Shown: positions 1 to 43,666, counted from the first letter of the stretch. The stretch is 43,666 nt of DNA from a virus (IMGVR_UViG_3300045988_028451:1-43666); one strand, 5' to 3'. The notes: generated by a model from the letters alone, not told the origin. A program made the numbers and translations.

Positions 1-55
1 ATTGATGTGGAAGACGGCAACCGTTTTCTTATAGCCTCAGACTCTGGCTTTCTTG
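1..55. repeat. 55-bp terminal direct repeat; bases 1-55 are identical to 43612-43666 (circular or permuted genome record)
   Basis: Exact identity of the first 55 bases with the last 55 bases, read directly. Confidence 0.9.
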
Positions 56-66
56 TGGCGCATAAC
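1..66 (+). mobile_element. intein, C-terminal splicing segment (continuation of 42781..43666)
   Basis: VYDLIDVEDGNRFLIASDSGFLVAHN followed by Cys matches intein blocks F/G with terminal His-Asn and a +1 Cys. Confidence 0.75.
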
Positions 67-927
67 TGCGAGCTTGGCCTCGGCTACGAGGGCGGCGTTG
101 GAGCGTTCGTTACGTTTGCTAAAAACCTAGGTCTTGACCTTATTGAGATGGCAAAAACAATGGACGGTACATTCCCGGACCATATCTGGTCGGCCACTGC
201 ACGCGGGTACGAGTGGGCGCGTATTCAGGAAGCCAAGCGACCACCGCATCCCGGTGAAAAGGATGACCGACCATCATATATTCTGGACAAGAAAGTGTGG
301 CGCACATGTGATGCAATCAAGCATATGTGGCGCGAGTCACACCCGGAAACAGTAGCGTTCTGGCGCGACCTTAAAGACGGAATTTTAGCCGCTGTTCGTA
401 ATCCTGGTCGTGAATTTTGGGCCGGGGCACACTTGCGCCGGAATGGTGAAAGGGCTATCCGCATATGGCGTACCGTAGAATTTGATTCGTCGGGCAGGAA
501 GGTTCCTGGCTGGTGGTTGTGTATGGAGTTGCCGTCAGGCCGTATCCTCTCGTATCCGGGAATCGGCGTTAGTGTGACAAAGGAAACAGACGAAGATGGA
601 CGGGTAAACACGAATGTGCGAATCAAGTACCAAGGTGAAAACCAGTTAACCCGCCAATGGACTACCCTGTACACACACGGCGGCAAAGCCTGCGAAAACA
701 TTGTTCAGGCGCTGTGCCGTGATTTACTCGCATATGCGATGATTAATGTTGAGGGTGGCGGGTATCCCATCGTGCTTTCGGTACACGATGAACTGGTATG
801 TGAAACTCCAGATACGCCGGATTACACGGTGCCTGAACTGGAAAAATTAATGTGTGCGTTGCCAGAGTGGGCGGGGGGGTTCCCTCTTGTAGCGGAAGGT
901 GCGGAGATGAAGCGCTATGCTAAGTAA
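1..927 (+). CDS. DNA polymerase I (family A), C-terminal part; continuation of the gene starting at 41440
   Basis: Frame is continuous with the 41440 ORF across the junction; after the intein end (HN at 61-66, Cys at 67-69) come ELGLGYEGG (motif B) and VHDELV (motif C); stop at 925-927. Confidence 0.85.
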   Translation: MDVEDGNRFLIASDSGFLVAHNCELGLGYEGGVGAFVTFAKNLGLDLIEMAKTMDGTFPDHIWSATARGYEWARIQEAKRPPHPGEKDDRPSYILDKKVWRTCDAIKHMWRESHPETVAFWRDLKDGILAAVRNPGREFWAGAHLRRNGERAIRIWRTVEFDSSGRKVPGWWLCMELPSGRILSYPGIGVSVTKETDEDGRVNTNVRIKYQGENQLTRQWTTLYTHGGKACENIVQALCRDLLAYAMINVEGGGYPIVLSVHDELVCETPDTPDYTVPELEKLMCALPEWAGGFPLVAEGAEMKRYAK

Positions 928-1048
928 ACTGATTATCGCGGTACTGGCGGGATTCGCCGCCGGTGTCTACTGCCACGAGGGTCAATACGGCATGATGGTC
1001 GCCGTATTGGGTATGTTAGTCGCAATTTATCTGTGGGTGCCGGAATGA
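917..1048 (+). CDS. small hydrophobic protein (43 aa)
   Basis: ATG at 917 overlapping the polymerase stop; product MLSKLIIAVLAGFAAGVYCHEGQYGMMVAVLGMLVAIYLWVPE is mostly hydrophobic. Confidence 0.3.
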   Translation: MLSKLIIAVLAGFAAGVYCHEGQYGMMVAVLGMLVAIYLWVPE

Positions 1049-1143
1049 AAATTTACTGGTTCTACGAAGAAGACTGCCGAATCTGTCCGCGCTGTGGCAT
1101 TGAGCATACAAAACGGGAGGGGTGCGTAGATGAGTACGCCTGA
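1045..1143 (+). CDS. small Cys-rich protein (32 aa), possible zinc ribbon
   Basis: ATG at 1045; CRICPRCG...C pattern; overlaps neighbouring genes; below the ORF-track size cutoff. Confidence 0.2.
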   Translation: MKIYWFYEEDCRICPRCGIEHTKREGCVDEYA

Positions 1144-1417
1144 GGGGCGTGTGCAGAAATACGCAAAAGAGCGATTCGAGGCCCTGGGGGGCCTCGTTCG
1201 TAAACTTTCGTACGAGGGGCGCTCCGGCGCCCCTGACCTGCTGGTAATTCTCCCCGGCGGCATCGTCTGGTTCGTCGAGGTTAAGAAAGACGAAAACACG
1301 AAGCCTGACCCGCACCAGTTACGTGAGCATGAGCGGATGCGTAAACGTGGTGCAAATGTTTTTGTCGTTGGTTCGTTTAAACAGGTTGACGACCTAATAG
1401 CAAACTATTATAGTTAG
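1130..1417 (+). CDS. VRR-NUC domain nuclease
   Basis: GGAGG RBS 9 nt upstream; PD...EVK-type motif (GAPDLLVILPGGIVWFVEVKKD) typical of VRR-NUC/PD-(D/E)XK nucleases. Confidence 0.7.
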   Translation: MSTPEGRVQKYAKERFEALGGLVRKLSYEGRSGAPDLLVILPGGIVWFVEVKKDENTKPDPHQLREHERMRKRGANVFVVGSFKQVDDLIANYYS

Positions 1418-1447
1418 CCATACACCAACAATATAAGGAATTGAGAA

Positions 1448-1642
1448 ATGAAACACGAATATGACCGCAAGCCGGCACGTGACATCGTACCTGGCGACAT
1501 GATTTTCAACGTTAAGACCCGCCAGCCTGTTGCCGTTGATACTGTGTTCGTCGAGTCAAACGGTAAACTGGTTATCGAAGATGTAACAGGCAACGTTACC
1601 GCGTTCGGGCGTAAAGAGCTGGTACTCTACGTTAAGGATTGA
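1448..1642 (+). CDS. hypothetical protein
   Basis: ORF with AGGA RBS, tightly packed in the replication operon. Confidence 0.5.
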   Translation: MKHEYDRKPARDIVPGDMIFNVKTRQPVAVDTVFVESNGKLVIEDVTGNVTAFGRKELVLYVKD

Positions 1643-1644
1643 AC

Positions 1645-3069
1645 ATGTCTAAATTTATCCGTCGAGGGTACCAGAAGCTCATGACTTCGTTCATGCTGCA
1701 ACACCCGCGCTGTAATATCTGGTGCGGAATGGGGGGAGGTAAAACCTCCTCCACTATGTGGGTGCTCAACCGCCTGTTCCGCAACGGGCAGCTTACGGAA
1801 GAGGACCGCGTGTTAATCCTTGCCCCGTTACGTGTTGCGTCCGGTACGTGGCCCGCTGAACAAGAGAAATGGCAATTCCCTTGTCTGCGTGTCGTAGATG
1901 CAACTGGTTCGGAGAAGCGCCGCATCGCGGCGCTGGAGTCAGATGCTAACGTGGTGTGCACTAACTACGAAGTTATCGAGTGGCTAATTGACTACTACGG
2001 CAAAGACGACTGGCCTTTTACGGTTATCGTTGCCGATGAAAGCACGAAGCTTAAATCGTTCCGCAGCCGTTCGGGTGGTAGCAAGCGGGCAAAGGCGCTC
2101 AGCAAGGTTGCGTTCGGAAAGGTTAAGCGTTTCATCAACCTGACAGGCACACCGTCACCAAACGGCCTCAAAGACTTGTGGGGTCAGAACTGGTTTATCG
2201 ACGCTGGCGAGCGCCTCGGCTCTTCGTATACGGCATTCACAGACCGCTGGTTTAACTCGGTACAGAAAGGTAAGTCGGCTATGGTGCGTGAATATCATGC
2301 GCGACCGGGTGCAGATAATGAAATTCATCAGAAGATGAAAGACATCAGCCTGACCATCGACCCTGCCGAGTGGTTCGGTTGTGAAGCGCCGATTATTGTG
2401 CCGGTTGAAATCGACCTGCCGAAGAAAGCGCGTCAGGCGTACATCGATATGGAGGAGAAGTTATTCGCTGAGCTGGAGAGCGGAGAAGTCGAAGCGGCTA
2501 ACGCGGCAGCAAAGACGTCGAAGTGTTTACAGATTGCATCTGGTGCTGTGTATGTATCAGGACCGGACGGCGAAGCAACCAAAGACTGGGAGAAAGTGCA
2601 CGACACGAAACTGGATGCGCTAGAGTCGATTGTGGAGGAGCTACAGGGTGCACCGTTACTAGTGGCCTATCAGTTTAAGCACGAACTTGAGCGTATCCTT
2701 AAGCGATTCCCTCAGGCACAGGCGTTCGCCAAAGGTGCGAAGGGCAATAAGCAGATGGAAGCGTGGAACCGCGGTGAAATCGAAATCTTATGCGTGCACC
2801 CCGCGTCAGCCGGGCATGGTTTGAATTTACAGGATGGAGGGCATCATCTGGCGTTTATAAGTCAGGGGTGGAACCTCGAGCACTATTTGCAGGTTGTCGA
2901 GCGCATAGGCCCTGTTCGTCAGAAACAGGCTGGACACGAGCGCCCGGTGTTCCTCTATCACATCGTCGCTAAAGACACGCTGGATGAGGTTGTTGCCGCG
3001 CGCACCGACGAGAAGAAATCTGTACAGGAAGAATTGCTTAATTACATGAAGAGACGAGGTAAGAAATGA
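1645..3069 (+). CDS. SNF2-family helicase
   Basis: Walker A-like GMGGGKT, DEST box and LTGTPSPN motif characteristic of SNF2/RAD54-type ATPases; ATG at 1645 after AGGA RBS (ORF track lists upstream TTG at 1639). Confidence 0.8.
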   Translation: MSKFIRRGYQKLMTSFMLQHPRCNIWCGMGGGKTSSTMWVLNRLFRNGQLTEEDRVLILAPLRVASGTWPAEQEKWQFPCLRVVDATGSEKRRIAALESDANVVCTNYEVIEWLIDYYGKDDWPFTVIVADESTKLKSFRSRSGGSKRAKALSKVAFGKVKRFINLTGTPSPNGLKDLWGQNWFIDAGERLGSSYTAFTDRWFNSVQKGKSAMVREYHARPGADNEIHQKMKDISLTIDPAEWFGCEAPIIVPVEIDLPKKARQAYIDMEEKLFAELESGEVEAANAAAKTSKCLQIASGAVYVSGPDGEATKDWEKVHDTKLDALESIVEELQGAPLLVAYQFKHELERILKRFPQAQAFAKGAKGNKQMEAWNRGEIEILCVHPASAGHGLNLQDGGHHLAFISQGWNLEHYLQVVERIGPVRQKQAGHERPVFLYHIVAKDTLDEVVAARTDEKKSVQEELLNYMKRRGKK

Positions 3070-3251
3070 AACTTAATGTTGGCGATGAAATATACAGCAT
3101 ACACTCATTCAATACTTTCACCATCGAGTACATATCAAAAGACGGCAACAGCTTTGTTTTGGTAAGCTCGGACGGTAAATACGAAAAGTCACGATGCTAC
3201 ACTCTGCCGGATATAAAGCGCAGTTTCAAGAAAAGCGAAGGTAAGAAATGA
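3066..3251 (+). CDS. hypothetical protein
   Basis: ORF overlapping the helicase stop (ATGA coupling) with GAGG RBS. Confidence 0.45.
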   Translation: MKLNVGDEIYSIHSFNTFTIEYISKDGNSFVLVSSDGKYEKSRCYTLPDIKRSFKKSEGKK

Positions 3252-3386
3252 ACATCATAGCCCCGATTCCAGCATTGCAAAAACGTATCAAGGAACTTGA
3301 AGAAGAGGTTCTACGACTACGGCAGCAAAGAGACGCAGCTAATGCGCAACTGGCGTTTGTTCTGGAGAAGCTATCAGAAGAGTAGA
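3249..3386 (+). CDS. small coiled-coil protein (45 aa)
   Basis: ATG overlapping upstream stop; heptad-like KELEEEVLRLRQQRD; ends just before a terminator hairpin. Confidence 0.35.
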
Positions 3387-3390
3387 GAAA

Positions 3391-3419
3391 AGGCCCCGTT
3401 TGGGGCCTTGTTTATTTAA
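3391..3419. terminator. bidirectional rho-independent terminator between convergent operons
   Basis: GGCCCC-GTTT-GGGGCC hairpin followed by TTGTTTATTT; T-rich on the opposite strand too. Confidence 0.7.
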
Positions 3420-5752
3420 CTGTTTGTCAGGGTAGCCACTAATGTCTCAAGCGCTATAATCCTTTTCTCTAACTGAGCTGCTTTACGTCGCTGTAACGCA
3501 GCCTCTAATATCAATACCTCATCATAACGAATACCATACCGCTCCCCTGCCGCCGTAGCTTTTGTTAATACTTCCCCAGATTCCTCATCAATAATTTCCG
3601 GAGACGCTTCCCACTTATCGTAGCACAGGAAACCGTACTTAGCCGCGTCCAACCCGTGCCGGGTAAACGCCTCAATTGCTCGTTGGGCTACTACTCCAAA
3701 GTGCCACCTAGCTGCATCCTCCCCCTTCTCTGCAACCCTATCCAGGTACTTATATTGAACTAAATTAACTTCAGCCCAAGCGTCTAATATAGCGTCAGTT
3801 AATTCCAGGGGTAGTGTCTTGGTTCTCTCGTCAGACGTAACCGTAAACGCTGTTTGAGTGAATCCGCCGGACAAAGCGCGACTTGCCGACCCGATAGCGA
3901 CGGTGTTTGCCCTGGATGGTGTAATAGCCGTCGGGGCTATTTGAATATACGCCGATGCGTCAGAGGCTAAGCGTAAATTACCCCCAACCAGAGCAATAGT
4001 TCGATAAGTACCATTAGATGTGAGTAATTTTATCTGAGAGGTCGTACCTCCACCAATAGCCAAAGATGTAGCCCCATCGGAAATTAGTCTGAATTTATCA
4101 GCTGTCACAAAAGGCAATGCAGAAGTATTTATATACTTAGTGAACCACTCAAACCTACCGGACATGGACCCTATGTATTGTCCTATAGCGGGGGCGTGTA
4201 CCACGTTACTGGTGGTAGTACCATCAATGCTAGAGACCCCGGTTATAGTAGATAGTGAACTAAGAAGACTGTTCTTGGGTCCAGGGTGCTTTACTTCCAC
4301 AAAGTTACGGGTAGTCCCTGTCTCTAGTGTAACAACCCCGGAAGCACTATACATAGGGAAAACCGATGCGTAGTTATTACTAGCTCTGTCTAAAAACCTA
4401 ATAGAAGTCGCGGTTTGCGTTTGCCCTAAACTATTAGTTCCGCTGCACCCAACCATTAGAATATTATCAGCGGCATTATAGTTGCCTTGTAATGTAACGC
4501 CGTGTGCTTGCGTGGCCTCGGAGGAGGAGTAATCAGCTACAACATTTGTCACCAGATTACCTGAACCCTTGCCGGCGGCCACAGCGGCATACTTAGCGTT
4601 ATTAGCAACAACATTACTGATAATATTACTGCTAGGGGCATTGGTCGTCTCGGTGCCATTATAAACAACGTGCTGACAGCTTTGCCCAATGACGCCACTA
4701 ACAACATTACATTTAGCATCTGTTTTCAACTCAACCGCCCCGAATTGGGGGTAGTTTCGGGCGATAACATCGTTGATTATAGTATTACTTGCGGACTCAA
4801 ACAGCACGCACCCCGCTTTTTTATTTGTAGCATACCCGGAGTAGTCGCCCCGTATGCCGCTTACAATGTATCCAGACGGACCCCCATCACTAGGGTATGC
4901 TATTAAACTAAATCCAGTTCCCTTTGCATTTTTAAAATCAATACCTTTAATAGTAACGTCCCGCCCACCGGCGAAGGAAACCTGCTGACCCTGTGTGGAG
5001 TCCGTTGCCTTATTTCCTACAATACTCAGGGTGCTAAGTAGCCCTCCTGCAGGTTTATCAAAGATTAAGTGGTTTCCAGAATCGTTTGATTGTTTTAAAA
5101 CCCCACCCCCTGTTCCGAATAGAGAGCATGTCGGGTGGGAGAGTAGCGACGTACTATACTCCCCTTGCGGTACAAGCACCCCGTTACTAGCTGTAAGCGC
5201 TCGGTTAAGGGCGTTTGTGTAATCAGGGTCAGTACCTAAATAGAAGTCCAGAACGGAAACTACTTCTCTATTTTTATCGTGTTGCGTCCTGCCGACAGCG
5301 TCGGTAAATGGTTGTCGGACGCCGACCATGGCATCACCTAATGTCGCATTGTCTGTGCTGGATAAATCATTGCGCAAATCCGGGTCAGTCTGCGGCTTCC
5401 AGTTAGCGTTACCAACCGGGTTAAACGATGCGGGGACAACAACCGGCAGAGTCCCGGTATACGAGTACCACGTCTTGCTTACAGGGTCATACACCACTTT
5501 GTCGCGGTCATTAGCGGTTAACGTACCACCAGTGGAAAAGTCCCATGACACCAGAGAAAAACCAGCGTCACGCAACACGGCTGGTAACGTCTTTTGGGTC
5601 TGCCCTGTAACGGCATTTGTCGCGTAATCAATATCGGCGCCACCTGCAACACCGCCGGATTTGCCGGTGATAACCTCGGCTTCGAAAATCTGGTGTTTCT
5701 TGGCGGTCTGTAAATCCGCCAGGCTTAAAACGTCACCGCATCCGCTTGACAT
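3416..5752 (-). CDS. tailspike / tail fibre with beta-helix repeats and C-terminal intramolecular chaperone-like domain
   Basis: 778 aa, last tail gene; Gly/Asn/Thr/Ser-rich repeats typical of parallel beta-helix; C-terminal SDERTK segment resembles Ser-Lys autoproteolytic chaperone domains; AAGAGGA RBS. Confidence 0.75.
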   Translation of the reverse strand: MSSGCGDVLSLADLQTAKKHQIFEAEVITGKSGGVAGGADIDYATNAVTGQTQKTLPAVLRDAGFSLVSWDFSTGGTLTANDRDKVVYDPVSKTWYSYTGTLPVVVPASFNPVGNANWKPQTDPDLRNDLSSTDNATLGDAMVGVRQPFTDAVGRTQHDKNREVVSVLDFYLGTDPDYTNALNRALTASNGVLVPQGEYSTSLLSHPTCSLFGTGGGVLKQSNDSGNHLIFDKPAGGLLSTLSIVGNKATDSTQGQQVSFAGGRDVTIKGIDFKNAKGTGFSLIAYPSDGGPSGYIVSGIRGDYSGYATNKKAGCVLFESASNTIINDVIARNYPQFGAVELKTDAKCNVVSGVIGQSCQHVVYNGTETTNAPSSNIISNVVANNAKYAAVAAGKGSGNLVTNVVADYSSSEATQAHGVTLQGNYNAADNILMVGCSGTNSLGQTQTATSIRFLDRASNNYASVFPMYSASGVVTLETGTTRNFVEVKHPGPKNSLLSSLSTITGVSSIDGTTTSNVVHAPAIGQYIGSMSGRFEWFTKYINTSALPFVTADKFRLISDGATSLAIGGGTTSQIKLLTSNGTYRTIALVGGNLRLASDASAYIQIAPTAITPSRANTVAIGSASRALSGGFTQTAFTVTSDERTKTLPLELTDAILDAWAEVNLVQYKYLDRVAEKGEDAARWHFGVVAQRAIEAFTRHGLDAAKYGFLCYDKWEASPEIIDEESGEVLTKATAAGERYGIRYDEVLILEAALQRRKAAQLEKRIIALETLVATLTNS

Positions 5753-19278: not shown

Positions 19279-19337
19279 AAATTACCTCTTAGTAAATGAA
19301 AAGAGGGACCGAAGTCCCTCTCGATTATATATTAACC

Positions 19338-20387
19338 TTAAGCACCGACACCAGTTACCAGAAATGCAATCGGTACATGCTTACGATCAACAACACGGTT
19401 CCAGTTGGAGGCGTTCGCCAGGTCCTGCCAGGAGGCAGAACGTGCGACAGTCTCGGTGCCGTTGCCAGTGATTACCGCGCTGGTGAAGCTGTAGCCCAGT
19501 GGGTGCAGCAACCAGGTCTTACGGGTCCACAGGGTTTCTACCCCACCGCCGTTGCCGCGAGACGCTTCGCGCTCGTATTCCAACGGGTTGGACGGAGAAC
19601 CTTCACCGTAACCGATAGCGCCGTTACCGAAGATAATGGAGATGAACTTACGGCTAGAGCCGGTGTTGACTACGGTCATGCTGTCGTCAACAATCACGCG
19701 GTAACCCTGGTAGGTGGCGAACAGTGTGTCGTTGTCGGCGTCTTTGATGAAGTCAATAAGCTGCTGCTTACGGGCCTGCGCATAAACGAAGCTGTGCATC
19801 GCGATAGCACCCAGCACTTCTCCGCCGTTGCCCATCAGCGCATCACCCATAGTCTGGGTGGCGTCGATGAACGCACCTGCGTCGAAGCCCAGAGTAGCAG
19901 ACACGTCTACAACCATGTCATTCTGCTCGTGGTATGCGTCGGTAGCGGCTACGTTGTCATTGTACAGACCGAGCGCGGTAGCGATCAGACGGCGTTGCGC
20001 CTGGCGCTGCCAGAAGTTATCCAGACGGGACGCTACGGATTGCAGCGGGTTCTGGCTGGTCAGTTCGACAGTCAGGTCCGCCTGGCCAAAACCTTCGTTC
20101 AGGTATGCAACGCGCGCCATCATCTCGCCGGTTTGCACGTTACGCGGGGTAGCGATGTCCTGGTATACGTCGTTCGAGTAGTTAGGCTCGATAGAAGTAT
20201 CAATCGCTTTCCAGAAAGGAATGTTAGCGACGTTGGACGGGCCGCGGGCAATCTCGGCGGCGTACGGAGTAGGGGTAAGAATACCGGACTGGAAGAACGC
20301 GGTTTTTTCTACCGGGTCCTCGGTCATATAAGACGCCAGGACCGGGATGTTGCCAGTTACGATATCGCCGATAGTGGTAATTGCCAT
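19338..20387 (-). CDS. major capsid protein (putative)
   Basis: 349 aa ORF directly downstream of scaffold-like gene in portal-MuF-scaffold-capsid order. Confidence 0.65.
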   Translation of the reverse strand: MAITTIGDIVTGNIPVLASYMTEDPVEKTAFFQSGILTPTPYAAEIARGPSNVANIPFWKAIDTSIEPNYSNDVYQDIATPRNVQTGEMMARVAYLNEGFGQADLTVELTSQNPLQSVASRLDNFWQRQAQRRLIATALGLYNDNVAATDAYHEQNDMVVDVSATLGFDAGAFIDATQTMGDALMGNGGEVLGAIAMHSFVYAQARKQQLIDFIKDADNDTLFATYQGYRVIVDDSMTVVNTGSSRKFISIIFGNGAIGYGEGSPSNPLEYEREASRGNGGGVETLWTRKTWLLHPLGYSFTSAVITGNGTETVARSASWQDLANASNWNRVVDRKHVPIAFLVTGVGA

Positions 20388-20389
20388 TA

Positions 20390-21091
20390 TTATTTCCTCA
20401 GGGCTTTAAGTTGCCGTTCAAATTCGGCAGGGTTCGATTTATACAGAGCTAAACGCTCCGCTTCACTCATGTCTTTAAACGCTGGTGCGGCCCCGCCGCC
20501 TTTGCCACCGGAAGCCCCGCCGCCGGAAGCTGCATTTGCTTTAATCAAATGCGAAAACGCTTTGTGTTCGCGCAGGTATTTGCGGAACTGTTCAGGGTCA
20601 GTCGTGATTACACCGCCGTCTGGCCCAACAAACTTAGTAACCACATCATCACCTTCGAACTCAGTCTTAACGAACGGAGCAAGAATGTCTACTGCTTCCG
20701 GGGTAATAAAGTCACCTGCGAAAGAGCCTAACACCGCTTTACGTTCGCTGCCGAGGATGCGCTCAGCCATTTTGGAGATGCGACCATCTTTCTCGGCTAA
20801 CACCGGGTCATACTGGCTACGAATCGTCTTTTCGAACTCGTCCATCTTACCGGCGGCTTTTAGCGCCTCCTGGTGCGCGCGCTGACGTTCCTCTTCGGCC
20901 TCTTTTGCTTTACGGGCGGCTTCTTTCTTCTCCGCCAGCAATGCTTCCTGATTGGCCTTAAGTCCGGCAACTTCTTTCTCAATCAGCGCCTGAACTTCTT
21001 CGGCTGTGAACATTTTTGGAGCGTCGCCACCGCCAGATTTATCTTCTGCCCCAGCTTCTTCCTGGAACGGATAGTGTAAAAAACGATTCAT
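20390..21091 (-). CDS. scaffolding protein (putative)
   Basis: Charged, helix-prone (EAARKAKEAEEERQRAHQEALKAAGK) with Gly-rich tail, immediately upstream of capsid gene; ATG at 21091 (ORF track lists upstream start at 21145). Confidence 0.5.
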   Translation of the reverse strand: MNRFLHYPFQEEAGAEDKSGGGDAPKMFTAEEVQALIEKEVAGLKANQEALLAEKKEAARKAKEAEEERQRAHQEALKAAGKMDEFEKTIRSQYDPVLAEKDGRISKMAERILGSERKAVLGSFAGDFITPEAVDILAPFVKTEFEGDDVVTKFVGPDGGVITTDPEQFRKYLREHKAFSHLIKANAASGGGASGGKGGGAAPAFKDMSEAERLALYKSNPAEFERQLKALRK

Positions 21092-41439: not shown

Positions 41440-43666
41440 ATGAGTTACCTGTTCTTAGACTTTGAAACATTCTCCGAAGCCGATTTAAAGAAAGTCGGCT
41501 CCTACGCTTACGCCGAGCATCCAACTACCGAAGTGCTTATCTGTACATACGCTTTTGACGACGAGCCTGTGCAGGTGTGGGATTGCACCGACGGCAGTGA
41601 CATGCCGGGCGATTTGCACCGCGCGTTACGTCGTCTGGTTAAGCCTAACAGTCGCATTAAGATGGTGTGGCACAACGGCTCAATGTTCGACAGGCTCATA
41701 ATGAAGCACTGCTGGGGCTTTGATATTCCGGTACGCAACACCATTGATACGATGATTTGGGCGTTTCGTCATGCATTGCCGGGTTCACTTGACTCATTGT
41801 GCGAAGTGCTGGGCGTGTCTGCTGACAATGCGAAGGATAAGCGTGGCAAGGCGCTGATTCAGCGTTTCTCTAAACCGACACCGAAGAACTACAAAATCAG
41901 ACGCTACACCGCCGAGACGCACCCTGATGAATGGGCGTTGTTCATCAAGTACGCCGTGAGCGATATTACCGCGATGCGTGAGGTATTCCATAAGCTGCCA
42001 CGTTGGGGTAACTCGGAGTTCGAGGACCGTGTACTGGAACTGGACCAGTTAATCAACGACCGCGGGTTTAAGGTTGACGTGGCACTGGCAGAAGCCGCGA
42101 TTGAAGCCGTGGAGAAACACAAAGCGCAGTTACAGGAAGAGGCCCAACGCAAATACGGCGGCTCGCTTACTGGTAAAGACTTTCTGCCGATTCTGCGCGA
42201 ACTTGCCCCTGCGCACCGAATCCACAACGTGCAGAAGTCAACGCTGAATGACCTGCTGGCCGACGATGATTTACCGGACGACGCACGCACGATTATCGAA
42301 ATGCGCCTCGGGGCCGCGTCCACGGCGTCCACGAAATATAACCCGCTGCTGCGGGGCCGCTCTTCGGACGACCGCCGTCGCGGTTGCTTGCAGTACGGTG
42401 GGGCAAAACGTACTCTGCGATGGGCAGGTAAAGGCTTCCAGCCGCAGAACCTGGCACGCGGTTACTATCATGATGATGAGCTGGATAAAGGCATTTCAGC
42501 GTTACTTAAGGGCCGCGCCCATCGCCGTTTTGATGTAGCCAAACTAACGGCATCTACTGTGCGTAGCTGCATAATACCGGAAGCCGGGCATAAGTTTGTC
42601 GTCGCCGATTACTCTAACGTTGAAGGCCGCGGGCTTGCGTGGCTGGCAGGTGAAGAAACCGCGCTCGATACGTTCCGCGCCGGACTGGATATTTACTGTG
42701 TAACCGCAGGCAAGATGTTCGGTATGGACCCTGATGACATTAAGAAAGAACGTAAAGACTTGCGCCAGATTGGTAAAGCGTGCCTTCACCGTCATACCCA
42801 GGTTTTGACCGATGGCGGATTTAAGGATATTATGGCGGTTACATCAACAGATAAAGTATGGAGCGGTGAAAAATGGGTGAATACAAAAGGCGCGCACCTT
42901 ATGGGGTGGAAACCGGTAATAAATGTGGACGGGGTGCTAATGACCGAAGATCACAAAATCTTGGCGCATTCCTGGAAGCAGGCAAAGCAACTCGCTTCAA
43001 ACAGATATATGATGGGCCTAGCCCTGGAGAGAGGTATGGACGCTTGGTTATCCTGCGCGAGTTGCCAAAACGACAAGGCCAAAGACAACTACTCGTCCAA
43101 TGTGATTGCGGAGAGATGCCGGGGCGGGTCTATTATGACAACGTCAGAGCGGGTAAAACCACTCAATGCAACCGCTGCGCCCTTGAAGCAACAAAAAAAT
43201 ATCGTAAACAGTATTTCTGCTACGAAGACGCAATGCCGGATGATGCACACAGAACGCGATTACTCAACCGGCTGTCAGCGGCGATCACGCGAACAACAAG
43301 CCCCAGGGATAAGGGTTATAAAAACTATGGGGCAAGAGGCATCACGGTATTCGACCAGTGGAGGACTGATAAAAGGTCTTTTCTTAGATATGTTCAAACT
43401 CTGGAAGGCTGGGATGACCCGAACCTCGAAATGGATAGAATCGACACAGACGGTAACTACGAACCTGGAAACATTCGGTTTGTCAGCCGTTCTGAAAACT
43501 GCCGAAACAGACGGCAAATACCCGAGCTTCAACGAAAGTATGATGCAGCCGTTGCCCGCATTGCTGAACTTGAGCGGGAAATTAACCTACTGCGAGCCGG
43601 TGTACGACCTGATTGATGTGGAAGACGGCAACCGTTTTCTTATAGCCTCAGACTCTGGCTTTCTTG
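41440..43666 (+). CDS. DNA polymerase I (family A) with 3-prime to 5-prime exonuclease domain, N-terminal part plus intein; continues at 1..927
   Basis: Exo motif LFLDFETFS; Pol A motif A ADYSNVEGR; frame stays open to the window end and continues across the junction (1033 codons including intein). Confidence 0.85.
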   Translation, partial: MSYLFLDFETFSEADLKKVGSYAYAEHPTTEVLICTYAFDDEPVQVWDCTDGSDMPGDLHRALRRLVKPNSRIKMVWHNGSMFDRLIMKHCWGFDIPVRNTIDTMIWAFRHALPGSLDSLCEVLGVSADNAKDKRGKALIQRFSKPTPKNYKIRRYTAETHPDEWALFIKYAVSDITAMREVFHKLPRWGNSEFEDRVLELDQLINDRGFKVDVALAEAAIEAVEKHKAQLQEEAQRKYGGSLTGKDFLPILRELAPAHRIHNVQKSTLNDLLADDDLPDDARTIIEMRLGAASTASTKYNPLLRGRSSDDRRRGCLQYGGAKRTLRWAGKGFQPQNLARGYYHDDELDKGISALLKGRAHRRFDVAKLTASTVRSCIIPEAGHKFVVADYSNVEGRGLAWLAGEETALDTFRAGLDIYCVTAGKMFGMDPDDIKKERKDLRQIGKACLHRHTQVLTDGGFKDIMAVTSTDKVWSGEKWVNTKGAHLMGWKPVINVDGVLMTEDHKILAHSWKQAKQLASNRYMMGLALERGMDAWLSCASCQNDKAKDNYSSNVIAERCRGGSIMTTSERVKPLNATAAPLKQQKNIVNSISATKTQCRMMHTERDYSTGCQRRSREQQAPGIRVIKTMGQEASRYSTSGGLIKGLFLDMFKLWKAGMTRTSKWIESTQTVTTNLETFGLSAVLKTAETDGKYPSFNESMMQPLPALLNLSGKLTYCEPVYDLIDVEDGNRFLIASDSGFL
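42781..43666 (+). mobile_element. intein inserted in polymerase motif B (O-helix), N-terminal and central part (ends at base 66 after the junction)
   Basis: N-extein ...RQIGKA; insert starts CLHRHTQVLTDGG (block A-like), has TEDH (block B-like) and ends ...VAHN + Cys; 299 codons in total. Confidence 0.75.
42873..43616 (+). CDS. HNH endonuclease encoded in an alternate frame inside the intein
   Basis: In-frame stop at 42867-42869, GGAG RBS then ATG at 42873; product has YGRLVILRE, CDCG...CNRC and YKNYGARGITVFDQW...DRIDTDGNYEPGNIRFVSRSENCRNRR, typical of phage HNH endonucleases. Confidence 0.7.
   Translation: MGEYKRRAPYGVETGNKCGRGANDRRSQNLGAFLEAGKATRFKQIYDGPSPGERYGRLVILRELPKRQGQRQLLVQCDCGEMPGRVYYDNVRAGKTTQCNRCALEATKKYRKQYFCYEDAMPDDAHRTRLLNRLSAAITRTTSPRDKGYKNYGARGITVFDQWRTDKRSFLRYVQTLEGWDDPNLEMDRIDTDGNYEPGNIRFVSRSENCRNRRQIPELQRKYDAAVARIAELEREINLLRAGVRPD

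What the first reader, a model, noticed from the sequence alone, without database searches (positions are those of the whole stretch)
42873..43616. HNH endonuclease gene nested in an alternate reading frame inside the intein
Across 42873-43616 two frames are open at once. The intein frame is open for its whole length, and a second frame, closed by a stop at 42867-42869, starts at ATG 42873 after a GGAG site and encodes a 247-aa protein with a Cys-rich ribbon and an HNH core (DRIDTDGNYEPGNIRFVSRSEN). It begins about 30 codons into the intein and ends about 20 nt inside intein block F. About 250 codons open in two frames is very unlikely by chance. Intein endonucleases are normally in frame, so a free-standing endonuclease gene overprinted on the intein, with the intein frame kept open so splicing still works, would be an unusual mobile-element architecture.
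Basis: partly seen in the sequence, partly recalled or inferred. Interest (0 to 1): 0.85.

Follow-up and report, generated by a model that had tools for sequence, protein, structure and literature searches.

The report
Hidden nuclease gene inside polymerase intein
A phage DNA-polymerase gene carries a self-splicing protein insert (intein) whose middle also encodes, in a second reading frame, a separate DNA-cutting enzyme that probably spreads the insert; it is real and strongly conserved, but this kind of arrangement was described in 2025.

Summary
Window 42873-43616 (+) is a 247-codon ORF lying inside a 299-codon class-1 intein (42781-43666, continuing at 56-66 because the window is circularly permuted). 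The intein interrupts motif B of a family-A DNA polymerase gene, and the polymerase frame has no stop. Chance gives such double openness in about 0.05-0.1% of synonymous shuffles. Codon-phase and dN/dS analyses show a time-share. The intein frame is selected at both ends. The nuclease frame is selected in the middle (dN/dS 0.05-0.15), where the intein frame drifts (0.75-1.5) but stays open. The same layout is present in about 160 Jerseyvirus/Kagunavirus genomes and in 51 of the 52 metagenomic relatives whose nuclease is at least 38% identical. None is in frame. Intein-less alleles exist, and the element is 99% identical between polymerases only 76% identical, which implies recent horizontal spread. 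The ORF's start codons are built on conserved intein Trp codons, and a promoter-like motif sits 40 nt upstream. Sequencing error, a group I intron and frameshifting are not supported. Precedents exist: actinophage inteins with out-of-frame endonucleases (2025 preprint), and nested HNH CDSs annotated in APSE-1 and SO-1. This is a new member of a known kind.

The parts
41440..43666 (+). Family-A DNA polymerase gene, 5' part (N-extein 41440-42780 plus most of the intein); it runs off the window end and continues at 56
   Evidence: Translation and wrap-around join give a 1032-aa product identical in length to the SETP3 and SP-101 Pol CDSs. Pfam DNA_pol_A matches the SETP3 orthologue at E 3.7e-15.
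1..55 (+). Terminal duplication of 43612-43666 (circular permutation of the assembly)
   Evidence: Exact identity of the two 55-nt ends.
56..927 (+). Rest of the polymerase gene: last 11 nt of the intein (56-66, ...VAHN), Cys+1 codon 67-69, C-extein, stop 925-927
   Evidence: The junction VAHN|CELGLGYEGG matches the relatives.
42781..43666 (+). Class-1 intein, 299 codons in all (continues at 56-66), inserted in PolA motif B: RQIGKA|C...VAHN|CELGLGYEGG
   Evidence: Intein-less allele S111 lacks exactly these 897 nt. The vB_SenS-Ent3 record annotates the same 897 nt as mat_peptide 'intein'. The mini-intein profile hits only solved inteins (Spl DnaX 7cfv at E 1.5e-5, NEQ068, PI-MtuI, DnaE, NrdJ-1, DnaB).
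42781..43056 (+). N-terminal splicing domain (intein codons 1-92; Cys1, block B TEDH, conserved VWSGEKWV motif)
   Evidence: C1, T6, G13, W27, G29, G37, T55, H58 and W65 are invariant, and W32 is invariant or nearly so, in the divergent inteins. Variable sites fall at codon position 3 of this frame and dN/dS is 0-0.05 for codons 1-30.
42805..42833 (+). Sigma-70-like promoter motif TTGACC-17 nt-TATTAT embedded in the intein coding sequence, about 40 nt upstream of the nested ATG (hypothesis)
   Evidence: Consensus scan. The same position scores as promoter-like in 15 of 41 divergent loci against 1.5 expected. The synonymous third base of intein codon 16 is T in 26/41 loci against an 18% background, across Ala/Pro/Asp/Arg/Ser codons. 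This holds in 12/21 to 19/29 clusters after clustering.
42860..42863 (+). GGAG Shine-Dalgarno-like site 9 nt before the ATG, formed by intein codons Trp-Ser (TGG AGC)
   Evidence: Sequence. The equivalent Trp-Asp-Gly codons give GGGA at the same distance in divergent loci.
42867..42869 (+). TGA that closes the nuclease frame upstream, leaving ATG 42873 as the only start before codon 12
42873..43616 (+). Nested ORF, 247 aa, frame 3 relative to the intein: HNH-family (His-Me finger-like) putative homing endonuclease
   Evidence: phrog_374 'HNH endonuclease' at E 1.1e-46, plus three other nuclease PHROGs. 306 homologues, with those of SO-1 and SS3e named HNH endonuclease. AF2 mean pLDDT is 86. 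dN/dS is 0.05-0.15 over codons 53-230.
42873..43019 (+). N-terminal leader of the nested protein (residues 1-49), overlapping intein codons 31-80; passenger-like
   Evidence: pLDDT is below 50 for residues 1-25 and 50-77 up to about residue 45. Free-standing homologues align only from about residue 52. Substitutions are spread evenly over the codon phases and dN/dS is 0.2-0.56 in both frames.
43020..43181 (+). Zn-ribbon / CapR-homology-like domain of the nested protein (residues 50-103; C77, C79, C99, C102)
   Evidence: 34 of 112 family members hit Pfam PF21817 CapR over this stretch, though the window protein itself does not. The four Cys are invariant. There is weak similarity to the Cox5B zinc ribbon.
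43425..43508 (+). Predicted beta-beta-alpha nuclease core (residues 185-212: EMDRIDTDGNYEPGNIRFVSRSENCRN)
43518..43595 (+). C-terminal long helix (residues 216-241), a probable coiled-coil dimerisation element
   Evidence: Helix 216-241 is predicted at high pLDDT. Family members give weak bZIP/DivIC-type coiled-coil hits.
43057..43599 (+). Intein-frame 'passenger' linker (intein codons 93-273): stop-free but not conserved as protein
   Evidence: 88 of 177 amino-acid columns vary in the intein frame against 40 of 178 in the nuclease frame. dN/dS in the intein frame is 0.75-1.48. No conservation is seen in the 42-sequence intein alignment.
43600..43666 (+). C-terminal splicing region, blocks F/G (VYDLIDVEDGNRFLIASDSGFL, then VAHN at 56-66); the nested stop TGA 43614-43616 lies inside it
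   Evidence: After the nested stop, variable sites fall at intein codon position 3 (11 against 1 and 1) and dN/dS is 0-0.05.

Best explanation
The region is a composite mobile element in the phage's family-A DNA polymerase gene. [quoted passage not shown]

The two reading frames share the DNA by taking turns. At the two ends the intein frame encodes the Hint splicing domain, and the nuclease frame merely passes through as a disordered leader and a short tail. In the middle roughly 180 codons the nuclease frame encodes the folded protein: a Zn ribbon, a helical region, a beta-beta-alpha core and a coiled coil. There the intein frame is a meaningless linker kept only free of stop codons. That openness lets ribosomes make the full polymerase precursor, so the intein can splice itself out and restore motif B.

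The nuclease is made as a separate protein from ATG 42873. This start codon and its GGAG are written into the conserved Trp-X-Gly-X-X-Trp codons of the intein. Transcription may come from a promoter-like motif embedded 40 nt upstream. The nuclease probably dimerises and cuts intein-less polymerase alleles near the motif-B site in mixed infections. Repair from the intein-bearing genome then copies the whole element together with flanking polymerase sequence.

Shown here: both frames are present, selection is specific to each frame, the arrangement is deeply conserved, precise presence/absence alleles exist, and there is a signature of horizontal transfer. Inferred: independent translation, splicing, cleavage specificity and promoter activity.
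For: 1. The double open frame is real and non-random.

2. Intein identity is supported several ways. Cys1, TxxH and His-Asn are invariant or nearly so in 42 divergent copies, and the +1 residue after each intein is Cys or Ser. The profile matches only solved inteins. An exact 897-nt presence/absence polymorphism sits at RQIGKA|CELGLGYEGG. One GenBank record annotates the same stretch as an intein.

3. Selection switches between frames. Variable sites at Pol-frame codon positions 1/2/3 number 14/8/44 in the N-extein, 6/2/15 in intein nt 1-92, 8/11/11 in the N overlap, 19/79/38 in nuclease codons 53-230 (the peak is nuclease position 3), 1/1/11 after the nuclease stop, and 11/10/28 in the C-extein. 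Nei-Gojobori dN/dS is 0.05-0.15 in the nuclease frame against 0.75-1.48 in the intein frame on the same DNA.

4. Conservation is deep. 163 phage records carry the ORF at 80% identity or more, all under a polymerase CDS. Of the 52 IMG/VR loci at 38% identity or more, 51 have the enveloping +1-frame ORF cleanly; the exception is SS3e, which has a 1-nt indel. Three more distant loci and APSE-1 carry the nuclease in the other alternative frame. None is in frame. Vibrio phage 97.13 and three assembly contigs show the same layout.

5. There is evidence of mobility. The intein is 98.9% identical against 76.3% for the N-extein between the window and f18SE, with an identity gradient in the flanks. SETP3 and the intein-less S111 are about 95% identical overall but dip to 86-87% at the junction.

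7. Start codons fall at three fixed NTG positions created by conserved intein codons (-16, -1 and +5 relative to the second Trp) in nearly all loci. Stop codons always lie inside the C-terminal splicing blocks.

8. A promoter-like motif with synonymous-site constraint is present.
Against: There is no expression, splicing or cleavage data.

The position that normally holds the catalytic His is an invariant Arg189 preceded by Asp188, so catalysis may be atypical or absent.

The AF2 model of the intein-frame product was uninformative (pLDDT 31 with an 8-sequence alignment). The claim that the linker is a disordered loop therefore rests on sequence evolution alone.

Initiation inside an ORF that is being translated in another frame is usually inefficient.

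The promoter statistics are only crudely corrected for relatedness, and part of the motif is forced by conserved Val-Leu-Thr and Ile codons.

Higher conservation of the catalytic part of the polymerase contributes to the identity gradient in the flanks.
Confidence: 0.8

Rival explanations
1. [quoted passage not shown] The open polymerase frame would then be incidental.
For: NC_013600 annotates gp39 'HNH endonuclease; type I self-splicing intron' nested in gp38 DNA polymerase. Phage PolA genes are known hosts of group I introns, as cited in PMC11855218.
Against: No Rfam family, including group I introns, matches 42500-43666 at E<=1. The polymerase frame is stop-free through the insert in more than 50 divergent copies, against 0.05-0.1% expected. 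Both ends evolve under amino-acid-level selection in the polymerase frame. They carry the intein signature residues and match solved inteins.
Confidence: 0.02
2. Artefact: two compensating sequencing indels hide an ordinary in-frame HNH intein.
For: One old record (SS3e) differs by a 1-nt indel that fuses the intein N-domain in frame to the nuclease and breaks the polymerase frame.
Against: About 160 independently sequenced phage genomes, from different labs, years and platforms, share identical frame relations. So do 51 metagenomic loci at 38-51% protein identity. Start and stop codons of the nested ORF are conserved in position. No in-frame version was found among the 80 loci.
Confidence: 0.01
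3. The nuclease frame is reached by programmed -1 ribosomal frameshifting from the polymerase frame at GAA-AAA-T (42868-42874), with the upstream GGAG acting as a stimulator. The product would be a fusion of the polymerase N-part, 30 intein residues and the nuclease, not a free-standing protein.
For: The nuclease frame is -1 relative to the polymerase frame. A run of five A (42869-42873) lies exactly at the junction. An SD-like GGAG sits 6-9 nt upstream, an arrangement reminiscent of dnaX (own knowledge). The motif is kept in SETP3 and SO-1.
Against: The A-run is absent in the divergent loci (for example caatcaTGGgtg and gtcgaaTGGgtg), whereas an ATG/GTG/TTG at -16, -1 or +5 is nearly universal. 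GAAAAAT is not a canonical X XXY YYZ heptamer. In the window a TGA lies in the nuclease frame 4 nt before the ATG, so only a slip on the last Lys codon could work.
Confidence: 0.05
4. The nested protein is real and selected but is not, or is no longer, a site-specific homing nuclease. It could be a DNA-binding or regulatory protein, or a weapon against co-infecting phages. The intein would then persist vertically.
For: The canonical catalytic His is replaced by Arg189 in the whole clade. No Pfam HNH model matches. The element is fixed in many Jerseyvirus lineages.
Confidence: 0.1
5. The intein no longer splices, and the 299-residue insert is tolerated as a surface loop of the polymerase. This was proposed for the ShiLan insertion in a methylase.
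For: Splicing was not tested. The intein-frame AF2 model is uninformative.
Against: Cys1, Thr55, His58 and the terminal Asn are invariant, the penultimate His is nearly invariant, and the +1 residue is Cys or Ser in the divergent copies. dN/dS is 0-0.05 at both ends. The insertion lies inside the motif-B O-helix that binds the incoming dNTP (established PolA knowledge), where a 299-aa loop is implausible.
Confidence: 0.03

Closest known systems
[quoted passage not shown]
   Same: A contiguous intein keeps its own frame open while a His-Me-finger-type endonuclease is encoded on the same strand in frame 3 between the splicing blocks. The authors also infer an origin by invasion of a free-standing endonuclease gene and find signs of continuing transfer. 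The window ORF also scores against a PHROG named endonuclease VII, at E 1.7e-5.
   Different: The hosts and exteins differ: enterobacterial and other Gram-negative siphophages with PolA motif B here, against actinophage terminase and other genes there. The nuclease here belongs to a CapR-ribbon plus DRxD...N...N family annotated as HNH. [quoted passage not shown] The preprint expects the state to be transient and to shift into frame. Here it is stable across relatives at roughly 40% identity. The preprint gives no start-codon or promoter analysis.
Nested CDSs already annotated in homologous elements: APSE-1 P46 'HNH endonuclease' inside P45 DNA polymerase (NC_000935, 1999) and Sodalis phage SO-1 gp39 inside gp38 (NC_013600)
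   Same: They share the same intein family (43% identity in the N-domain for APSE-1; 70% across the whole intein for SO-1) and the same nuclease family nested in a PolA gene. SO-1's element is the direct orthologue of the one in the window, with 81% nuclease identity.
   Different: In APSE-1 the intein sits at another PolA site (GGKS|C...VHN|CENICQAA) and the nuclease is in the other alternative frame (frame 2). SO-1's record interprets the element as a group I intron. Neither record links the openness of the two frames to selection. Whether the 1999 APSE-1 paper discussed this could not be checked, because the paper is not held.
ShiLan domain / Pacc40 gp60 'hidden' out-of-frame HNH insertions in mycobacteriophage methylases (Arsenault et al. 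2025, PMC11855218)
   Same: An out-of-frame HNH lies inside an insertion that reads through in the host frame, and the insertion has a homing-like distribution. The Pacc40 copy is a detectable homologue of the window nuclease: 28.7% identity over residues 52-208. ShiLan's insertion ends in TAAC, and 12 of 42 loci here end their nuclease ORF with TAA made from the intein's CAT-AAC.
   Different: ShiLan has no detectable splicing domain, and its authors propose that it stays as a loop. The element here has a complete, conserved Hint domain.
Canonical bifunctional inteins with an in-frame HNH or LAGLIDADG domain, and inteins with an antisense LAGLIDADG ORF (Dalgaard 1997 and Gorbalenya 1998, as cited)
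   Same: A Hint splicing domain is split by an endonuclease-coding segment, and the element spreads by homing.
   Different: Here the endonuclease is not part of the intein polypeptide. It has its own start and stop and lies on the same strand in another frame.
Homing-endonuclease genes embedded in host genes with their own expression signals (T4 intron ORFs, 'genes within genes'; mobE in Aeh1 nrdA; cited)
   Same: Nuclease expression is decoupled from the host gene through internal promoters or RBSs. This is the model proposed here for ATG 42873 and the motif at 42805-42833.
   Different: Those ORFs sit in introns or between split genes. They are not overprinted on a translated protein-coding frame.

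Membership tests
Intein (class 1, Hint fold) | Nucleophilic Cys/Ser at position 1 and block B Thr-x-x-His | tested here: met
   Cys at 42781-42783 and TEDH (T55, H58). C1, T55 and H58 are invariant in 42 divergent copies.
Intein (class 1, Hint fold) | C-terminal His-Asn followed by Cys/Ser/Thr (+1) of the C-extein | tested here: met
   VAHN|C at window 55-69. The terminal Asn is invariant and the penultimate His nearly invariant (a few copies have Ser-Asn). The +1 residue is Cys or Ser in all copies.
Intein (class 1, Hint fold) | Sequence or structure similarity to known Hint domains | tested here: met
   The profile of N92+C34 residues hits 15 PDB chains, all of them inteins. The best is the Spl DnaX mini-intein 7cfv at E 1.5e-5, covering positions 4-113. 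Pfam and NCBIfam models do not match the single sequence. The AF2 model was uninformative.
Intein (class 1, Hint fold) | In-frame insertion at a conserved site of an essential host protein, with precise intein-less alleles | tested here: met
   PolA motif B. S111 and about 200 other records lack exactly 897 nt: RQIGKA|CELGLGYEGG.
Intein (class 1, Hint fold) | Autocatalytic protein splicing | not testable with these tools
   Inferred from conserved catalytic residues, dN/dS of 0-0.05 at both ends, and the viability of the phages.
HNH / His-Me finger (beta-beta-alpha-metal) endonucleases | Beta-beta-alpha-metal fold | tested here: inconclusive
HNH / His-Me finger (beta-beta-alpha-metal) endonucleases | Signature residues: His (general base) at the end of beta-1, a structural Asn, and a metal-ligand His/Asn in the helix | tested here: not met
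   The end of beta-1 is Asp188-Arg189, and R189 is invariant in 112 sequences. No His is present. Asn200, Asn209 and Asn212 are present. It is therefore a variant active site, and I do not file it as a canonical HNH.
HNH / His-Me finger (beta-beta-alpha-metal) endonucleases | Match to curated HNH family models | tested here: not met
   0 of 112 members match any Pfam HNH model, and NCBIfam gives nothing. Only PHROG families annotated as HNH endonuclease match: phrog_374 at 1e-46, phrog_3377 at 7e-22 and phrog_2081 at 2e-21.
Homing endonuclease (functional class) | Site-specific cleavage of the empty allele and gene conversion | not testable with these tools
   Support is indirect: the element is 99% identical against 76% for the extein, there is an identity gradient and a junction dip, and presence/absence is polymorphic.
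Inteins with an out-of-frame, same-strand homing-endonuclease ORF (Gosselin et al. 2025) | An endonuclease ORF inside the intein on the same strand in another frame, with the intein frame uninterrupted | tested here: met
   The ORF is in frame 3 relative to the intein, as in the preprint.
Inteins with an out-of-frame, same-strand homing-endonuclease ORF (Gosselin et al. 2025) | The second frame is a maintained gene, not a relic | tested here: met
   dN/dS is 0.05-0.15, variable sites peak at its third codon position, and the ORF is intact in 51 divergent loci.
Group I intron with a homing-endonuclease ORF (SO-1 annotation) | Group I intron RNA structure | tested here: not met
   No Rfam match at E<=1 in 42500-43666.
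Programmed -1 ribosomal frameshift site | A conserved slippery heptamer at the frame junction | tested here: not met
   GAAAAAT occurs only in the Jersey/SO-1 group. It is absent in the divergent loci, which instead conserve NTG start codons.

The most novel reading that the evidence does not exclude
The out-of-frame arrangement is an evolutionarily stable design, not a transient accident. In a large, previously uncharted clade of PolA (and at least one SNF2) inteins, the N-terminal splicing-domain codons are triple-coded. They specify the Hint fold, they provide the ribosome-binding site and start codon of the nuclease through the Trp-Asp-Gly-x-x-Trp codons, and they contain a sigma-70-type promoter (Val-Leu-Thr gives TTGAC; xxT-Ile gives TAT). 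The nuclease would then be transcribed and translated independently of the polymerase. Selection would keep it out of frame, in either alternative frame but never in frame, to decouple nuclease dosage from polymerase dosage.
Probability: 0.3. Interest if true: 0.75.

Novelty: new member of a known kind. Interest (0 to 1): 0.55.

Why it matters
It gives natural support, in easily grown Salmonella and E. coli phages, to the 'splicing domain first, endonuclease invades later' model for how inteins became mobile.

It also shows that two unrelated proteins can share about 250 codons by alternating which frame carries information. The only demand on the passenger frame is that it has no stop codons.

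Practically, gene callers either split these polymerase genes or miss the nuclease. Most of the roughly 160 GenBank records annotate only the polymerase. The protein databases searched here hold the nuclease frame (306 hits) but almost never the polymerase frame across the intein (4-8 hits).

The system offers clean genetic tests, because mutations silent in one frame are disruptive in the other. These could address nuclease-dependent intein homing, tolerance of mini-inteins to long unstructured inserts, and expression signals embedded in coding sequence.

Tried and rejected
- **Pfam and NCBIfam on both frames:** no HNH or intein model matched.
- **PDB sequence searches with the nuclease profile:** only a weak Cox5B zinc-ribbon similarity.
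- **Foldseek of the nuclease model against PDB:** nothing significant. The afdb50 library was unavailable.
- **AF2 of the intein-frame product:** pLDDT 31 and uninformative, because only 8 near-identical sequences were allowed in the alignment. Two protein-database searches with the intein frame returned only 4 and 8 hits, so no deep alignment could be built.
- **Rfam search for a group I intron:** none found.
- **Sequencing artefact:** rejected on the number and independence of the genomes.
- **-1 frameshifting:** judged unlikely because the A-run is not conserved.
- **Promoter scan of the window alone:** not significant by itself, with 2 sites against 1.4 expected. It became interesting only through positional conservation in other loci.
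- **Other copies in the window:** a search for a second intein or nuclease of these families found none.
- **Literature:** searches for a prior description of the Jerseyvirus case found only mentions of inteins, not of the second frame. The 1999 APSE-1 paper could not be read.


Full report
**Observation.** The window is a circularly permuted siphophage genome, most similar to members of the subfamily Guernseyvirinae (Kagunavirus and Jerseyvirus). Its first 55 nt repeat its last 55 nt. The family-A DNA polymerase gene therefore runs 41440-43666 and continues at 56-927, giving 1032 codons. That is the same length as the annotated Pol CDS of SETP3, SP-101 and fPoEco01.

Inside it, 42873-43616 is a 247-codon ORF in another frame. 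It starts at an ATG preceded by GGAG (42860-42863), and a TGA at 42867-42869 closes that frame just upstream. The polymerase frame has no stop across it, while the third forward frame has 27.

Reshuffling synonymous codons of the ORF leaves the polymerase frame open in 0.05% of trials (permutation within the ORF) to 0.125% (window codon usage). Other genes of the window carry 0.047 +1-frame stops per codon. This is the longest same-strand double-open stretch in the window; the next is 393 nt.

**What encloses it.** The polymerase is interrupted after RQIGKA by 299 codons that begin CLHRHTQVLT and end VAHN, followed by CELGLGYEGG.

- Close relatives such as Salmonella phage S111 lack exactly these 897 nt and read RQIGKACELGLGYEGG, which is PolA motif B.
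- In 42 divergent copies Cys1, Thr55, His58 (block B) and the terminal Asn are invariant. The penultimate His is nearly invariant, and the +1 residue is Cys or Ser.
- A profile of the N-terminal 92 plus C-terminal 34 residues hits only solved inteins in the PDB. The best is the Spl DnaX mini-intein at E 1.5e-5, spanning both halves, followed by NEQ068, PI-MtuI, DnaE, NrdJ-1 and DnaB.
- One GenBank record (vB_SenS-Ent3) annotates the same 897 nt as an intein, and several others name the gene 'intein-containing DNA polymerase precursor'.

The intein itself is therefore known. The nested ORF is annotated in almost none of these records.

**What the second frame encodes.** The product matches PHROG families annotated as HNH endonuclease: phrog_374 at E 1e-46, with two more HNH families, a restriction-endonuclease family and an endonuclease VII family. 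It has 306 homologues in the protein collection.

With a 112-sequence alignment AlphaFold gives mean pLDDT 86. The model shows these parts:

- Residues 1-25 are disordered, and residues 26-45 are of low to moderate confidence.
- Residues 50-103 form a four-Cys ribbon/barrel. This is the Pfam CapR homology domain in 34 family members.
- A helical region follows.
- Residues 185-212 form a beta-beta-alpha unit.
- Residues 216-241 form a long helix with coiled-coil character.

The limits are real. No Pfam HNH model matches any member. No solved nuclease is found by sequence. The position of the canonical catalytic His is an invariant Arg preceded by Asp. I therefore call it an HNH-family-like (His-Me finger) nuclease with a variant active site, not a canonical HNH.

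**Which frame is selected where.** In ten Jersey/Kaguna/SO-1 sequences that align without gaps, I counted variable sites by polymerase-frame codon position 1/2/3:

| Segment | Variable sites (pos 1/2/3) |
|---|---|
| N-extein | 14/8/44 |
| Intein nt 1-92 | 6/2/15 |
| First 52 nuclease codons | 8/11/11 |
| Nuclease codons 53-230 | 19/79/38 |
| After the nuclease stop | 1/1/11 |
| C-extein | 11/10/28 |

In nuclease codons 53-230 the peak falls on the nuclease's third codon position. Nei-Gojobori dN/dS agrees:

| Region and frame | dN/dS |
|---|---|
| Nuclease core, nuclease frame | 0.05-0.15 |
| Same DNA, intein frame | 0.75-1.48 |
| First 30 and last 20 intein codons, intein frame | 0-0.05 |
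| N-terminal overlap, either frame | 0.2-0.56 |

The two genes therefore take turns. Each is the 'passenger' where the other is functional, and the passenger needs only to avoid stop codons. Free-standing homologues in Staphylococcus, Enterococcus and other phages align only from about residue 52. This fits the disordered leader.

**Conservation.**

- tblastn finds the ORF at 80% identity or more in 163 phage records, always under a polymerase CDS.
- A scan of IMG/VR returned 80 loci. All 52 with 38% identity or more have an enveloping +1-frame ORF of 600-1250 codons that carries the same intein. The one irregular case is SS3e, whose 1-nt indel swaps frames. The loci at 36% identity or less are mostly free-standing genes.
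- The enveloping genes are PolA, with the intein at two positions four residues apart in motif B. One copy is at another PolA site (L080) and one is in an SNF2 helicase (L057).
- Three more distant loci, and phage APSE-1, carry a related nuclease in the other alternative frame of a related PolA intein.
- No copy among the 80 loci is in frame.
- Assembly contigs and Vibrio phage 97.13 show the same layout.
- The wider nuclease superfamily is very large: 113,443 clusters at E<=1e-3 and 401 at E<=1e-30.

**Mobility.** Roughly 150 Guernseyvirinae records carry the intein and roughly 200 do not, with exteins up to 95.6% identical across the two classes.

Between the window and f18SE the N-extein is 76.3% identical but the intein is 98.9% identical. 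Identity climbs from about 65% to 96% over the last 400 nt before the junction and decays again downstream. SETP3 and the intein-less S111 are about 95% identical, yet identity dips to 86-87% around the junction.

These are the patterns expected from recent homing with co-conversion of flanks. The higher conservation of the catalytic region contributes to the gradient.

**Expression signals (inferred).** In the divergent loci the nuclease-frame start codons fall at three fixed places: -16, -1 or +5 nt relative to the second Trp codon of the conserved intein motif LWDGxxWV. Any base before TGG creates an NTG codon in the -1 frame, and GTA-TGC (Val-Cys) creates another. The Trp-Asp/Ser-Gly codons supply GGGA or GGAG 9 nt upstream. 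In the window the only candidate before codon 12 is ATG 42873.

The stop codon always lies inside the C-terminal splicing blocks. In 12 of 42 loci it is the TAA formed by the terminal His-Asn codons CAT-AAC.

A sigma-70-like motif (TTGACC, 17 nt, TATTAT) lies at 42805-42833. The same intein position scores as promoter-like in 15 of 41 divergent loci, against 1.5 expected from codon shuffles. The synonymous third base of codon 16, which forms the first T of the -10 hexamer, is T in 26 of 41 loci across five different amino acids, against 18% elsewhere in these inteins. After single-linkage clustering at 70-75% nucleotide identity the proportion is still 12/21 to 19/29. This is suggestive and untested.

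**Rivals.**

- **Group I intron** (the SO-1 annotation). This is contradicted by the absence of any Rfam match, by amino-acid-level selection in the polymerase frame at both ends, and by the intein signatures.
- **Compensating sequencing errors.** These are excluded by the number and diversity of the genomes.
- **A -1 frameshift at GAAAAAT.** This is conceivable in this phage, but the A-run is not conserved whereas the start codons are.
- **A non-splicing loop.** This is implausible inside the motif-B O-helix, given the invariant splice residues.
- **A non-homing role for the protein.** This cannot be excluded, because the canonical His is missing. The transfer signature argues for mobility.

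**Comparison with the known.** A 2025 preprint on actinophage inteins reports endonuclease VII-like genes in 'frame 3' of inteins, antisense LAGLIDADG and Vsr-like genes, and proposes invasion by free-standing endonuclease genes. A 2025 paper reports hidden out-of-frame HNH genes in methylase insertions that lack splicing domains. One of these, in Pacc40, is a distant homologue of the present nuclease. GenBank already annotates nested HNH CDSs in APSE-1 (P46 in P45) and SO-1 (gp39 in gp38).

The present case is therefore a new member of a known kind. What it adds:

- the breadth and age of the arrangement;
- its apparent stability, in either alternative frame and never in frame among the 80 loci examined;
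- a quantitative picture of frame time-sharing;
- the finding that the nuclease's start, stop and perhaps promoter are written into conserved intein codons.

**Verdict.** Confidence in the composite-element model is about 0.8. Confidence in independent initiation at 42873 is about 0.65, and in the embedded promoter about 0.3. Interest is moderate (0.55), because the principle was published recently and homologous nested CDSs sit in old records.

Noticed in passing
window 1-55 and 43612-43666: The two ends of the window are identical over 55 nt, so the sequence is a circularly permuted or terminally duplicated assembly. The polymerase gene and the intein wrap around the ends.
   Followed up: yes
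window 19296-20882 (+), opposite 19341-20405 (-): A 529-codon stop-free frame lies on the + strand antisense to the major head protein gene (phrog_247, E 5e-120) and its neighbour. It has no Pfam or PHROG match. It is probably a shadow frame, but it is unusually long.
   Followed up: partly
L092 (APSE-1, NC_000935) 1328-4309 (-) and 1633-2055 (-): The APSE-1 P45 polymerase carries a related intein at a different PolA site (GGKS|C...VHN|CENICQAA). The annotated nested CDS P46 'HNH endonuclease' is in the other alternative frame (frame 2). The nuclease frame is open for 222 codons, longer than the annotated 141 aa.
   Followed up: partly
L090 (Sodalis phage SO-1, NC_013600) 813-4001 and 1759-2517 (-): The orthologous element is annotated as a 'type I self-splicing intron' with HNH gene gp39 inside polymerase gp38. 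The evidence here indicates it is an intein, so the record's interpretation looks wrong.
   Followed up: yes
L061, L064, L073 (IMG/VR loci), nuclease ORFs near 3400-4280: The same intein family in PolA carries a more distant nuclease (31-35% identity, with an extra C-terminal domain) in the +1 frame relative to the intein instead of +2. The nesting therefore exists in both alternative frames.
   Followed up: partly
L057 2434-4983 and L080 1477-4512: The same intein with a nested nuclease occurs in an SNF2-family helicase (LNRPSE|C...AHN|CYVLFRH) and at a second PolA site. The pair has moved between target sites and host genes.
   Followed up: partly
12 of 42 divergent loci, e.g. L006 3021-3024, L019, L022: The nuclease stop codon TAA is formed by the intein's terminal His-Asn codons CAT-AAC, so the element ends ...TAAC. 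The ShiLan paper reports the same four-base ending for that insertion, which hints that ShiLan-type insertions may derive from such inteins.
   Followed up: no
L015 / P0007 (Salmonella phage SS3e, AY730274): A 1-nt length difference fuses the intein N-domain in frame to the nuclease (annotated as a 268-aa 'HNH endonuclease') and breaks the polymerase into three 'hypothetical' CDSs. This is either an old sequencing error or a real in-frame conversion.
   Followed up: no
P0173, P0129-P0131, P0146 (proteins): Other contexts exist for the same nuclease family. In one, an SNF2 helicase N-part reads directly in frame into the nuclease without an intein N-domain. Other proteins have 3-5 tandem copies of the Zn-ribbon (CapR-like) domain before the nuclease core.
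   Followed up: no
protein collections queried: The nuclease frame is richly represented (306 hits), but the polymerase frame across the intein is nearly absent (4-8 hits). On metagenomic contigs the polymerase is called in fragments around the nuclease ORF (for example L006). Gene callers therefore systematically mis-annotate these loci.
   Followed up: partly
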